Source of the DNA: Octopus vulgaris
Lineage: Eukaryota
Length of the DNA: 64,000 nt
Direction: 5' to 3'
Assembly (NCBI GenBank): GCA_951406725.2
Contig: OX597827.1
Span: 80,042,001 to 80,106,000 of the forward strand
Part shown: positions 1-3,000 of the stretch, piece by piece
Layout of the letters: the number at the start of each line of letters is the position of its first letter
Numbering within the stretch: position 1 is the stretch's first letter
Position numbers: made by a program

Positions 1-3000
1 TAATAATACCAAATAAACATTCATAGACTTACCTTCATTGTGTGTAAAATCCTTTGTTGTATAAACTGTGACTTGGTCCCAATGTTCTGTTGTTAATGGT
101 TGTCTGTGTCACTGCTGCTATGGTGTGACAATGGCTTCATGTTGATGGAATAGTGTTGGTGGTGAGTCAGTGGGAACCAGCAGTTCCCTCTCAGTCTTCC
201 TTTGTGGATGTGTGGTGTTTAGTGAGTGTGTGTGTGCAAATGCGTGTAAGAGAGAGAGAGAGAGAGGAGGGATGGGTGATGCTTGCTCCAGCCTCACACA
301 CACAAGATGCTGTGTTTCCCTCAAAGAGAAGAGGAAAGAAAGAAAGAGAACAAACAATATCAGCTCCACTAACAGTCAGCCATAAGAAGTCCATATAACA
401 CCAACATGTCTGATGTAGAGAGAGAGAGAGAGAGACTGGCATAGATATATATATATTCAGTGTTTCATACGGATCTCATATTAACAAAACATCACTGATA
501 TTGGTAAATATATTACTAACAAATGATGTTAATATAGAACAAGTTCTGGTTAAGATGTGTCTGACCTAAATATACACCCAACCTATAATGGAGGATGCAG
601 GAACAAATAGAGAAGGGATATTCTAATTTTCAGGCAGGTTTATTTTGGTATCATTTTTAAATATAATTTCCTAAGTCTTAGATTTTAATAACACTGCTGT
701 AAAAAATAGAGAAATATATTTTAAATATATTCTAATTTAATTTTAGATATATTTGAGAAATTTCATAAATATTATGCAAAATTCCTGTGTGTGTGTGTGT
801 ATTTATGGATACAAGTTGAAATCTGTCTGACTTCCAGTTAGTGTGTATGTATTGTATAGTATGCTGATATATAATATTGTAATTGTGAGGTAAAGATAAA
901 ACGTCTGTATTTTTTTAAACTTGTATGAGTGTGTGGTTAGAGGTTCGTATTTGAAATGGTATTGGTAAGGGGTCAATATTTAGTAAATGACCAGTGGTCA
1001 GTTAGTAATGACATCTGGTGTTGAAGGTAACTGTCTCTCTGGAGGTTTCACATATCTGTCTTGATACTGTTGTCTTTCGGGGTTCACTGGTGTATCCTGT
1101 TGGCTACCATAGATCCCTGCAAAACATTGTTTTAATGTAGCAATGTCAGAAACAATCACCATCATCAGAAATACTCTAGGGACACACAGACAGAACTAAT
1201 TACATCTCAGTCTACAACAATAATTAGTAATGAATTACTGTAATATTAAATGAGAATGGATTGTTGTCCTACCTGACATTGCCGGTATTTCTTCATACTG
1301 TCTACTTGACCGCTCACTCCAGCACTGTCCACTGCTCTTCCGACTGGTCAGTGTGTCAGTGGGATAGTTAGAGGATGGTCTGTTGTCTCCATAAGATGTC
1401 ACCTCAATCGGTTGACTGTATTTCTGCTGTAAAATAAAACGGCAACCAGTTATACTGTAATGTTGTTATAGAATAAATTTGAGTAATTAAGTATTTTGAG
1501 TATATTTAATTATCCGTATATTACTTGAAGCAATTAAAAGATGTATATTTTTTCAGATACACTATGTCAGATAAAATGCTAAAGAAATGAAAAAAAAAAA
1601 TCAGGCAGTTATTGTTGACATAAGTGAGGAACACAGCGATTTAGATATTACCAACTTTGTAAAATGCTGCAAGATCTTTTGTACTCAAAGTTTGGGTAGA
1701 ATTGGAAGCCTCTAGCAAGAATTTTTGAAGTGTATTAAAGAGAACTAAATTCTTCTAAATGTTTAGACTTTAGAAAGACACTGCAGTTCATCCAATGGAT
1801 TCAGAACATTATTGATTATGATCCCAGAAAACCAGTAAAGGAGGCCATGGTGAAGGAAATTCAAGCATTGGAATGGACTCGCAGAACTGAGGTGCACAAG
1901 CACATTTGACACCTGTCCTATGTACTGAGGAGAGGCTAATTCCTGTCTCCAAAGAACCAAGAAAATCATTTGACCTGTGCCAAGAGGTTACTTAACGAGG
2001 TTAAAAACCCTCACAAATACATTGTACTTTGGTTCCTCTCTGATGCAAAAAACTTTCACCAAGTCAGAAGTCTCACAGGAGAAAAGGCAGATGACTATGT
2101 TGTTACTTTCTGATGTTGCAAGAGCAATGCACATTCCGTTTCCAGCAACTGTGAGTTTTAAGGCTGGTTAGTAATGAAGATAATGTCATACCACCTCACA
2201 TATTTCCACAGAGTCTTAGAATTGATGTGGTTTGAAGTGCTGGAGATAGTTGTTAAGTTCTGGATGAATGAAGTATGCAGTGGAAAATCGAAGGTGTTTC
2301 AGCTCGTCTCAACACCTTCTCACAAAGACCATGTAACCCCAGAATGTATGTCATACACTCTTTCTAATTATGTAATAACGAACATGTGGCCTCCAGACTG
2401 ACAGGTTTAAATTCCATGGGTTAAGTGCTTTATACGCACTTTTGACATGTTGTGGTGCACCTCAGCTCTGCATACAATAATTATATTATTATATGATAAG
2501 TTTGGTGTATTGTTGAAAGATAGACTAATCAACATCTCCACAATACCAAATATAAATACACAAACGTTTATGACTGCCCATATATTGCTTGAAGCAAATA
2601 ACGATAATTTAGTGAAGGCAGATAAGTGGTTCTGGTGCCACACTGCAGTGGTCATCAAAAATGTAGGTGGATTCAAAGGATAAAAAGGTAAGAAGTCAGA
2701 ATAAATACAACAGGATATTTCATCTACTGATTCTGCCAATTCTAGGATGCTTATATCATCCACTAACAAATAAAGAAAGTCATGCTTTAGTGTAAACAGG
2801 AGAAAGTAATTAACACAAGTCATTTAAGATTGTTGTAGTGAGTCATTCCTCACTACAACAATCTACTGCCTAGCTATATACCTATGGCCACATTCTGACC
2901 AATTTACTGCCTATGGTGTTGGGTTATACAAAGTGTCTTCAAGTAAATCACATACTAAACACATGATACACAATTCTGAGAGGAAATTTTATCAGATATA

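What the first reader, a model, noticed from the sequence alone, without database searches (positions are those of the whole stretch)
33..420. Near-invariant non-coding leader cassette repeated once per protocadherin unit
Seen: a ~170 bp non-coding core recurs almost base for base 8 times (ends at 33, 7295, 14138, 24341, 32574, 42798, 53032, 60835). Outside the G1/G2 duplicated block its flanks are unrelated. Each copy ends exactly at a minus-strand GTAAGT donor, and each large exon starts with an acceptor just before its ATG. The cassette sits only ~0.4-0.9 kb past the previous gene's stop. Inference: it is a shared first exon/promoter, so all isoforms would have equivalent promoters, a possible convergent analogue of the conserved sequence element of vertebrate clustered Pcdh promoters and a basis for stochastic promoter choice. 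Alternatively it is a 3'UTR donor that splices read-through transcripts into the next gene.
Basis: partly seen in the sequence, partly recalled or inferred. Interest (0 to 1): 0.85.

Follow-up and report, generated by a model that had tools for sequence, protein, structure and literature searches.

The report
Shared non-coding first exon of octopus protocadherins
Each gene in this octopus protocadherin array carries its own copy of a nearly identical non-coding first exon with a similar promoter, and the copies most likely stay alike through the same copy-correction between neighbouring genes that also keeps half of their coding sequence identical.

Summary
Eight same-strand copies of a ~380-bp cassette occur, one per protocadherin gene. 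Each ends in a 148-nt stretch that is letter-identical in 6 of 8 copies, followed by 13 variable bases and a GTAAGT donor (8 of 8). The cassette is best read as proximal promoter plus non-coding exon 1.

The near-invariance is not special to it. A ~1.2-kb block of every large exon (EC4 to the cytoplasmic part) differs by only 5-17 bases between any two paralogs, while EC1-3 is 50-71% identical (97% in the recent duplicate pair) and introns do not align. Trees against Argonauta hians proteins show cross-species orthologs in the EC1-3 part and species-wise clustering in the EC4-cytoplasmic part. That is concerted evolution by gene conversion, as known for vertebrate clustered protocadherins.

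The cassette has no CpG in its core, no CGCT box and no CTCF-like motif, so it does not match the vertebrate conserved sequence element. Not tested here: where transcription starts, whether the splice is used, how the core is distributed genome-wide, and how it compares across species.

The parts
33..409 (-). Cassette c1: conserved upstream block to last base of leader exon. The 148-nt homogeneous core is 46-193 and the donor GTAAGT is 27-32. Its gene lies beyond the window start.
7295..7672 (-). Cassette c2, leader of gene u1. Core 7308-7455 (1 substitution); donor just below 7295.
14138..14519 (-). Cassette c3, leader of gene u2. Core 14151-14298.
24341..24736 (-). Cassette c4, leader of gene u3. 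Core 24354-24501; intron 1 is 5577 nt.
32574..32895 (-). Cassette c5, leader of gene u4. Core 32587-32734 is identical to the majority form, although the second upstream block is largely deleted and u4 carries a frameshift.
42798..43172 (-). Cassette c6, leader of gene u5. Core 42809-42957 (1 substitution, 1 inserted base).
53032..53380 (-). Cassette c7, leader of gene u6. Core 53043-53190.
60835..61244 (-). Cassette c8, leader of gene u7. Core 60848-60995.
3084..5460 (-). Gene u1 large exon (E2): acceptor at 5460, ATG at 5432, donor after 3084. Cadherin repeats. The 3' ~1.2 kb (about 3170-4370) is the homogenised block.
9921..12297 (-). Gene u2 large exon.
16393..18763 (-). Gene u3 large exon (ATG 18750).
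27528..29927 (-). Gene u4 large exon (ATG 29880), with a 1-base frame change in a run of nine A at 29563-29571.
37511..39921 (-). Gene u5 large exon (ATG 39868).
47868..50283 (-). Gene u6 large exon (ATG 50237).
56001..58414 (-). Gene u7 large exon (ATG 58358).
8543..8701 (-). Exon 3 of gene u2, an example of the ~159-nt cytoplasmic exon. The others are 1271-1429, 15409-15567, 26564-26722, about 33639-33785 (divergent), 44159-44320 and 54472-54630.
8256..8384 (-). Exon 4 coding part with stop of gene u2, as an example. The last-residue coordinates of the others are 1001, 15127, 25116, 33439, 43684, 54275 and 61792. The next cassette starts 340-808 nt further on.

Best explanation
The window is a head-to-tail array of whole protocadherin genes from an octopus (nearest named proteins: Octopus sinensis). 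All genes are on the minus strand and each has four exons. The repeated cassette is each gene's proximal promoter plus its non-coding exon 1.

Transcription is inferred to start inside the cassette, most simply near the 5' edge of the homogeneous block, which gives a leader of about 161 nt. The leader's GTAAGT donor is inferred to be spliced to the acceptor 13-58 nt before the ATG of the large exon 1.8-5.6 kb downstream. All mRNAs of this subfamily would then begin with the same 5'UTR. That 5'UTR holds a 15-codon upstream reading frame and a TGACTCA heptamer in all 8 copies.

The copies are kept nearly identical mainly by gene conversion between paralogs. The same process demonstrably homogenises the EC4-to-cytoplasmic ~1.2 kb of every large exon and, less tightly, exon 3, while the EC1-3 recognition part, the introns and the spacers diverge freely. 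Purifying selection on the leader may add to this but is not needed to explain the identity.

Shown: the repeat, its non-coding nature, the donors and acceptors, the four-exon gene structure, and concerted evolution of the coding block.
Inferred: the start site, use of the splice, and that conversion rather than selection keeps the leader uniform.
For: Gene identity. Cadherin domains are found in 3 of 3 ORFs scanned. The 120 best hits listed for u1 are protocadherin-type proteins (cadherin Pfam domains in all); those that carry a name, all but two, are from Octopus sinensis, O. vulgaris, O. bimaculoides or Argonauta hians.

Gene structure. The four-exon structure comes from exon-by-exon tblastn and splice-site inspection.

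The cassette. There are 8 of 8 copies in one orientation and one relative position. The donor is kept in 8 of 8, stops occur in all 3 frames, and acceptors precede the ATG in 7 of 7.

Identity gradient. The core is 148 nt with 3 variable columns. The next 250 nt upstream are 72% identical, the following 250 nt 54%, and intron 1 is 50%.

Homogenised coding block. Every one of the 21 gene pairs differs at only 5-17 of ~1200 nt from about residue 326-357 (the EC3/EC4 border) onward, against 50-71% identity 5' of it in 20 of the 21 pairs (97% in u1-u2). The recent duplicates u1-u2 (6 differences) are no closer there than u1-u3 (5).

Cross-species test. In the C-terminal part, identity is 98.1% within the window, 98.8% within O. 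sinensis and 96.7% within A. hians, but 93.0% between A. hians and the window. In the N-terminal part, starred cross-species pairs appear (for example u5 with P0033 and u3 with P0020, support 100). One clade of the 23 A. hians rows is rejected for the N part (lnL lower by 768, p-AU 2e-41) and not rejected for the C part (p-AU 0.59).

Leader versus coding block. The leader has 3 variable columns in 148. The median 148-nt window of the coding block has 2 (range 0-7), and 7.5 would be expected at that block's synonymous rate (P(X<=3)=0.06).

Gene u4. It has a frame change and a partly deleted upstream block, yet its core is letter-identical to the majority. That is easier to explain by conversion than by selection on that gene.

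Literature. Homogenisation by gene conversion has been suggested for cephalopod PCDH arrays (PMC9068888, passages; PMC6339937, passages). Homogenisation of EC4-6 that spares EC2-3 is described for vertebrates (PMC4978886, passages).
Against: No transcript, CAGE or chromatin data were available, so neither the start site nor the exon 1-exon 2 junction is observed.

No other octopus genome could be searched. The test that proved conversion for the coding block could therefore not be applied to the leader. Extreme purifying selection on the RNA remains possible, and the leader is borderline less variable than synonymous sites of the homogenised block (P=0.06).

Pairwise differences in a 216-nt leader region do not correlate with differences in the coding block (Spearman rho 0.12, p 0.62, 21 pairs).

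The homogeneous island is short (148 nt) and lies 1.8-5.6 kb from the coding block, across unalignable intron and divergent EC1-3. It therefore needs conversion events of its own.

No TATA box or initiator could be assigned with confidence. The TATA-like stretch in the first upstream block is not kept in all copies.

The u4 frame change lies in a run of nine A and could be a sequencing error.
Confidence: 0.65

Rival explanations
1. The leader is held invariant chiefly by purifying selection on an RNA or DNA function shared by all isoforms. Candidates are common translational control through the upstream reading frame, mRNA localisation, a long protein- or RNA-binding platform, or a promoter-proximal element needed for equivalent (possibly stochastic) choice. 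Gene conversion would be secondary.
For: The 5' edge of identity is sharp and could be the start of the transcript. The donor hexamer survives although the intron is unalignable. The leader has 3 variable columns against 7.5 expected at the synonymous rate of the homogenised coding block, P=0.06. The 15-codon upstream frame and the TGACTCA heptamer are present in 8 of 8 copies.
Against: The same near-identity holds at synonymous sites over 1.2 kb of coding sequence, where cross-species trees show conversion. The last 13 nt of the exon vary. There is no excess RNA structure: z = 0.13, and 105 of 200 shuffles fold as well. No Rfam family reaches its threshold. The possibly defective gene u4 keeps a perfect core. 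The presumed promoter proper is only 72% identical.
Confidence: 0.2
2. The cassette is not a promoter. It would be part of the extended 3'UTR of the preceding gene (or an internal exon of a long read-through transcript), and its donor would splice read-through RNA into the next gene's large exon.
For: The cassette starts only 340-808 nt after the preceding stop. One of 8 spacers has no AATAAA/ATTAAA hexamer before the cassette. Read-through transcripts that fused PCDH genes were met and corrected by hand in an O. vulgaris annotation (PMC9712504, methods passage). One O. bimaculoides database model (P0030, 1102 aa) joins exon 4 of one gene to the pre-ATG part of the next large exon.
Against: Seven of 8 spacers do hold polyadenylation hexamers 69-475 nt after the stop, ahead of the cassette, though this is weak evidence in AT-rich DNA. 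The P0030 model skips the leader rather than using it. The sequence just 5' of the core is CA-rich and a poor acceptor compared with the T-rich acceptors of the large exons. Conservation that fades over ~250 nt upstream looks like a promoter rather than a UTR whose remainder is unalignable.
Confidence: 0.1
3. The core is a dispersed repeat, a mobile element, a spliced-leader-type RNA gene or an assembly artefact, and is only coincidentally next to protocadherins.
For: Genome-wide distribution could not be checked. The cassette carries microsatellites, as many short interspersed elements do.
Against: In 64 kb all 8 copies have the same strand and the same place in the gene unit, and none lies elsewhere. 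True dispersed repeats in the same window are 75-82% identical, occur on both strands and sit at arbitrary intron positions. There is no tRNA-like part and no Rfam match. The sequence after the donor is not conserved, so there is no conserved intron half as in spliced-leader RNA genes. The matching homogeneity of the coding block is also seen in independently annotated O. sinensis and A. hians proteins, which argues against an artefact of this assembly.
Confidence: 0.05

Closest known systems
Concerted evolution (gene conversion) of vertebrate clustered protocadherin variable exons (Noonan et al. 2004, known here only as cited in PMC4978886, passages read)
   Same: Paralogs in a tandem array keep the membrane-proximal ectodomains and the cytoplasmic part nearly identical, synonymous sites included, while the recognition domains stay diverse. 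The homogenised part clusters by species and the variable part by orthology.
   Different: Here the units are complete four-exon genes, each with its own small 3' exons, rather than variable exons spliced to one shared constant region (PMC9068888). The block starts at the EC3/EC4 border. A separate non-coding 5' exon is homogenised as well, which was not found described in the papers read.
Conserved sequence element (CSE) / CTCF site of vertebrate clustered Pcdh promoters (PMC7811963 and PMC4978886, passages)
   Same: A recurring conserved non-coding element lies 5' of every isoform of a clustered protocadherin array.
   Different: The CSE is a short promoter motif with a CGCT box, at a fixed distance upstream of the start codon, and it binds CTCF. 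The octopus element is a 148-nt stretch that ends at a splice donor, lies 1.8-5.6 kb from the ATG, and has no CpG, no CGCT and no CTCF-like 12-mer in 8 of 8 copies.
Ordinary non-coding first exons (5'UTR exons) duplicated along with tandem gene copies
   Same: Donor at the 3' end, acceptor just before the start codon, no reading frame, and promoter-like conservation upstream.
   Different: Six of 8 copies are letter-identical although the paralogs predate the split from Argonauta.

Membership tests
Non-coding first exon plus proximal promoter of an RNA polymerase II gene | Exon ends in a consensus splice donor | tested here: met
   GTAAGT follows the last exon base in 8 of 8 copies, while the intron beyond is at 50% (background) identity.
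Non-coding first exon plus proximal promoter of an RNA polymerase II gene | A matching acceptor upstream of the start codon of the next exon | tested here: met
   A T-rich tract plus AG lies 13-58 nt before the ATG in 7 of 7 large exons.
Non-coding first exon plus proximal promoter of an RNA polymerase II gene | No protein-coding frame through the exon | tested here: met
   Stops occur in all three frames. None of the 8-residue words of its translations occurs in the 120 related proteins.
Non-coding first exon plus proximal promoter of an RNA polymerase II gene | Transcription starts within or at the 5' edge of the element | not testable with these tools
   No transcript or CAGE data were available. 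No unambiguous TATA box or initiator is kept in all copies.
Vertebrate Pcdh conserved sequence element / CTCF site | Short motif with a CGCT box | tested here: not met
   CGCT (either strand) is absent from the 432-nt cassette in 8 of 8 copies. The motif is as named in PMC7811963.
Vertebrate Pcdh conserved sequence element / CTCF site | Match to a CTCF binding motif | tested here: not met
   No match with up to 2 mismatches to a 12-mer CTCF-like consensus, on either strand, in 8 of 8 copies. The consensus was recalled from memory, and octopus CTCF specificity is unknown.
Vertebrate Pcdh conserved sequence element / CTCF site | CpG sites that allow methylation-dependent promoter choice | tested here: not met
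   There are 0 CpG in the 172-nt core in 8 of 8 copies and 0-2 in the 260 nt upstream.
Vertebrate Pcdh conserved sequence element / CTCF site | Fixed short distance upstream of the start codon, with no intervening intron | tested here: not met
   An intron of 1834-5577 nt separates the cassette from the ATG-bearing exon.
Segments homogenised by gene conversion in clustered protocadherins | Near-identity between paralogs, including silent or non-coding positions, next to strongly diverged segments | tested here: met
   The leader core has 3 variable columns of 148 among 8 copies. The coding block has 21 variable columns of 1190, 13 of them synonymous. EC1-3 is 50-71% identical in 20 of 21 gene pairs (97% in the recent duplicates u1-u2).
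Segments homogenised by gene conversion in clustered protocadherins | The homogenised segment groups by species while the variable segment groups by orthology | tested here: inconclusive
   Met for the coding block: for the hypothesis that the A. hians rows form one clade, p-AU is 2e-41 (rejected) for the N part and 0.59 for the C part. Not testable for the leader itself, because no other octopod DNA was available.
Spliced-leader RNA gene (trans-splicing) | Short leader followed by a conserved intron half with an Sm site, in arrays independent of the target genes | tested here: not met
   The sequence after the donor is unalignable between copies. There is one copy per gene at a fixed position and no Rfam hit.
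Dispersed repeat / short interspersed element | Copies on both strands at arbitrary positions, with a tRNA-like or other polymerase III head | tested here: not met
   Within the window, 8 of 8 copies share strand and position and there are 0 elsewhere, and 0 tRNA-like genes. Genome-wide distribution was not testable.

The most novel reading that the evidence does not exclude
The octopus array may be built from a variable module and constant modules that are written out in full in every gene and kept constant by gene conversion. The variable module is EC1-3. The constant modules are a shared 5' leader, EC4 to the cytoplasmic part, and exon 3. This would be a convergent, DNA-level counterpart of the vertebrate variable-exon/constant-exon design. 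In this reading the invariant leader is itself selected. It would give every isoform the same translational or localisation control, and its near-identical proximal promoter would make the genes interchangeable targets for a CpG- and CTCF-independent, possibly stochastic, choice mechanism.
Probability: 0.15. Interest if true: 0.8.

Novelty: new member of a known kind. Interest (0 to 1): 0.45.

Why it matters
How octopus neurons choose among about 170 protocadherin genes is unknown. If every gene of a subfamily starts with the same leader and a similar promoter, this gives concrete coordinates for CAGE, ATAC and reporter tests of that choice.

The split into a diverse EC1-3 part and a homogenised EC4-to-cytoplasmic part shows that octopus and vertebrates reached the same 'variable recognition, constant signalling' layout by different genomic means.

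There is also a practical point. About 1.2 kb of coding sequence, exon 3 and the leader are near-identical between paralogs, so short reads from these parts cannot be assigned to a gene. Isoform-level expression studies must use EC1-3 or the 3'UTRs.

Tried and rejected
Rfam at gathering thresholds over the whole window gave 0 hits. A permissive scan of one cassette gave only sub-threshold chance-level matches, 18-20 bits against gathering scores of 50-100.

A single-sequence RNA fold of the leader gave z = 0.13, so there is no sign of structure.

The tRNA scan found 0 genes.

I looked for leader-derived peptides in 120 related proteins and found none.

The N-terminal extension of P0006 is unrelated to the leader. 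P0030 is a chimeric model that skips it.

Correlating leader differences with coding-block differences across 21 gene pairs gave rho = 0.12, p = 0.62, so this offers no support.

Polyadenylation hexamers are present in 7 of 8 spacers, but this is weak evidence in AT-rich DNA.

ORFs of at least 110 codons outside the large exons showed nothing that bears on the cassette.

Literature: six full-text searches found no paper describing a shared non-coding first exon or promoter element of cephalopod protocadherins. One search failed on term syntax and was repeated. Albertin et al. 2015 and Noonan et al. 2004 are not held.

The spliced E1-E2-E3-E4 model was never joined or searched. All work was done exon by exon.
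Full report
WHAT THE WINDOW IS. All long reading frames are on the minus strand. The three I scanned carry five cadherin repeats each plus the protocadherin N-terminal domain in two of them. The 120 best database relatives listed for the first one are protocadherin-type proteins; those with a name, all but two, are from Octopus sinensis (best, 93% identity), Argonauta hians, O. 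vulgaris or O. bimaculoides. The window is therefore a tandem protocadherin array of an octopus close to O. sinensis. No N is present.

Exon-by-exon tblastn with six of those proteins, plus inspection of the junctions, gives the same four-exon structure for every unit:
- E1, a non-coding leader;
- E2, a large exon of about 2.4 kb holding the signal peptide, six cadherin repeats, the membrane span and the start of the cytoplasmic tail;
- E3, a ~159-nt exon;
- E4, a last coding exon of ~125 nt.

Everything below is exon by exon.

THE OBSERVATION. In the sense (minus-strand) alignment, 155 of the 172 columns before the donor are invariant.

The strictly homogeneous stretch is 148 nt. Its coordinates are 46-193, 7308-7455, 14151-14298, 24354-24501, 32587-32734, 42809-42957, 53043-53190 and 60848-60995. 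Six of the eight copies are letter-identical. One has one substitution, and one has a substitution and an inserted base. The following 13 nt vary, then GTAAGT follows in 8 of 8. All three frames contain stops.

Upstream, about 250 nt are still related (mean 72%, range 57-100%). They hold two conserved blocks separated by CT/CA microsatellites of variable length. Further upstream (54%) and in intron 1 (50%) nothing aligns, except among the three most recent duplicate units at the low-coordinate end.

Intron 1 is 1834-5577 nt long. The preceding gene's stop lies 340-808 nt before the cassette's first conserved block.

WHAT IT IS NOT.
- It is not a known RNA family. There are 0 Rfam hits at gathering thresholds in the window, and only chance-level matches in a permissive scan.
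- It is not detectably structured: z = 0.13, and 105 of 200 shuffles fold as well.
- It has no tRNA-like part.
- Within the window it does not behave as a dispersed repeat. All 8 copies share strand and position in the unit, and no copy lies elsewhere. The window's real dispersed repeats are 75-82% identical, occur on both strands and lie at arbitrary intron positions.
- It does not resemble a spliced-leader gene, because the sequence after the donor is unalignable.

THE KEY CONTEXT: THE LEADER IS NOT THE ONLY NEAR-INVARIANT SEGMENT. Aligning the seven large exons shows two regimes. The first ~1 kb (signal peptide and EC1-EC3) is 50-71% identical between genes in 20 of the 21 pairs (97% in the recent duplicates u1-u2). 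From about residue 326-357, the EC3/EC4 border by the Pfam coordinates, to near the exon's end, every one of the 21 gene pairs differs at only 5-17 of about 1200 nt.

Only 21 of 1190 columns vary at all, 13 of them synonymous. The recently duplicated pair u1-u2 (97% identical elsewhere) differs at 6 positions there, no fewer than u1-u3 (5). Divergence in this block is therefore unrelated to the age of the duplication. Exon 3 is also highly similar in 6 of 7 genes. Introns and spacers between the same genes are unalignable.

PROOF OF CONCERTED EVOLUTION FOR THE CODING BLOCK. I aligned the seven window proteins (large exon only) with 39 named relatives and split the alignment at the border. One of these, P0030, was left out of the trees, which therefore hold 45 rows.

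Identities:
- C-terminal part: 98.1% within the window, 98.8% within O. sinensis and 96.7% within A. hians, but 93.0% between A. hians and the window.
- N-terminal part: paralogs within the window average 60%, while the best cross-species pairs reach 80-82%.

In the FastTree of the N part (45 rows), window genes pair with individual A. hians genes at support 99-100, and the A. hians label needs 11 changes. In the C part, 23 of 25 A. hians rows form one clade at support 99, and 3 changes suffice.

I then ran IQ-TREE on 40 rows. Six were dropped beforehand: five distant or chimeric rows and one long-branch row. Forcing the 23 A. hians rows into one clade costs 768 log-likelihood units in the N part (p-AU 2e-41). 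In the C part it is not rejected (p-AU 0.59, and the constrained tree is slightly better).

The paralogs thus predate the split between the two lineages, and their EC4-to-cytoplasmic halves have been homogenised separately in each lineage since. This is the pattern described for vertebrate clustered protocadherins, where EC2-3 escape conversion and the C-terminal ectodomains do not (PMC4978886, passages). Homogenisation has been suggested in general terms for cephalopods (PMC9068888, passages; PMC6339937, passages).

WHAT THIS MEANS FOR THE LEADER. The leader core has 3 variable columns in 148. The median 148-nt window of the homogenised coding block has 2 (range 0-7). At that block's synonymous-site rate, 7.5 would be expected (P(X<=3) = 0.06). 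The leader is thus as uniform as a segment known to be homogenised by conversion, and only marginally more uniform than its silent sites. No special constraint is required, although some is not excluded.

Gene u4 is informative. It has a one-base frame change in a run of nine A (29563-29571) and has lost most of the second upstream block, yet its core is letter-identical to the majority form. If u4 is really defective, selection on u4 cannot be what preserves its leader.

Results that do not help this reading:
- Leader-region differences do not correlate with coding-block differences across the 21 pairs (rho 0.12, p 0.62).
- The island is short and separated from the coding block by unalignable intron, so it needs conversion events of its own.
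- The cross-species test could not be run on the leader, for lack of any other octopus DNA.

MOST LIKELY MECHANISM. The cassette is the proximal promoter plus non-coding exon 1 of each gene. Transcription is inferred to start within the cassette. The simplest guess is the 5' edge of the homogeneous block, which gives a ~161-nt exon, but a start further upstream inside the cassette is equally allowed. The leader is spliced to the acceptor just before the ATG.

Every mRNA of this subfamily would then share one 5'UTR. In all 8 copies this holds a 15-codon upstream reading frame (in c1, 93-140) and a TGACTCA heptamer. Eight of the window's 14 TGASTCA sites are the cassette copies. Whether either matters is untested.

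'First exon/promoter' is supported as far as sequence can go. 'Analogue of the vertebrate conserved sequence element and basis for stochastic choice' is not supported:
- The invariant part is the transcribed leader rather than the upstream region, which is only 72% identical on average.
- The core has 0 CpG in 8 of 8 copies.
- The 432-nt cassette has no CGCT box and no match (up to 2 mismatches) to a CTCF-like 12-mer in 8 of 8 copies. The motifs were recalled, and the CSE description comes from PMC7811963.
- An intron separates the cassette from the ATG.

Published single-cell work on O. vulgaris reports some PCDH genes as ubiquitous and others as cell-type enriched, with about 19 expressed per cell (PMC9712504, passages). 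That neither shows nor excludes stochastic choice.

The spacers are short, one of 8 lacks a polyadenylation hexamer, and read-through PCDH fusions were met in that same study's annotation. One O. bimaculoides model, P0030, fuses neighbouring genes, though it skips the leader.

NOVELTY AND VERDICT. None of six full-text searches turned up a description of this shared first exon. Supplements with curated gene models were closed, and two key papers were not held, so it may be in print.

In kind, it is an ordinary 5'UTR exon with its promoter, inside a gene family already known or suspected to undergo gene conversion. What is worth keeping is the clean modular picture: a variable EC1-3 part, and a homogenised leader, EC4-to-cytoplasmic block and exon 3. 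It is a close convergent parallel to vertebrates, and it comes with exact coordinates for promoter and start-site experiments.

Interest is moderate (0.45). Confidence in the main explanation is 0.65.

Noticed in passing
large exons, e.g. about 3170-4370 in u1 and the corresponding 3' ~1.2 kb of 9921-12297, 16393-18763, 27528-29927, 37511-39921, 47868-50283 and 56001-58414: A ~1.2-kb block from the EC3/EC4 border to the cytoplasmic part differs by only 5-17 nt between any two of the seven paralogs, while EC1-3 is 50-71% identical (97% in the recent duplicates u1-u2). Cross-species trees show that this is concerted evolution.
   Followed up: yes
29563-29571 (minus strand, gene u4): The reading frame of the large exon shifts by one base in a run of nine A, so u4 is either a pseudogene or carries a homopolymer sequencing error. 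Its cassette also lacks most of the second upstream block.
   Followed up: partly
33427-33785 (exons 3 and 4 of gene u5): Unlike the other six genes, u5 has a divergent exon 3 (about 54% protein identity to the O. sinensis query, with a 21-nt gap in the alignment) and a divergent exon 4. Its leader is also the most altered copy.
   Followed up: partly
23606-23770, 34219-34772, 35123-35515, 42260-42506, 51770-51904: A family of short dispersed repeats lies in introns and spacers, at 75-82% identity and on both strands. It is probably a mobile-element family and served as an in-window contrast to the cassette.
   Followed up: partly
21200-21610, 37045-37248, 45981-46113, 53804-54035, 54794-55218: Inverted repeats or palindromic stretches of 90-230 nt at 87-90% complementarity lie in non-coding DNA. 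Their nature is unknown.
   Followed up: no
whole window: CpG is strongly depleted (observed/expected 0.27 at 34% G+C), which is compatible with germline methylation of the region.
   Followed up: no
protein P0030 (O. bimaculoides, 1102 aa) and P0006 (O. sinensis, 1012 aa): P0030 is a chimeric database model that runs from exon 4 of one protocadherin gene into the pre-ATG part of the next gene's large exon. P0006 has a 135-residue N-terminal extension unrelated to cadherins. Both suggest that annotation of these arrays is disturbed by read-through or alternative upstream exons.
   Followed up: partly
1-14600: Three consecutive units (leaders at 33, 7295 and 14138) are recent segmental duplicates, 97-98% identical including introns and spacers.
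   Followed up: partly
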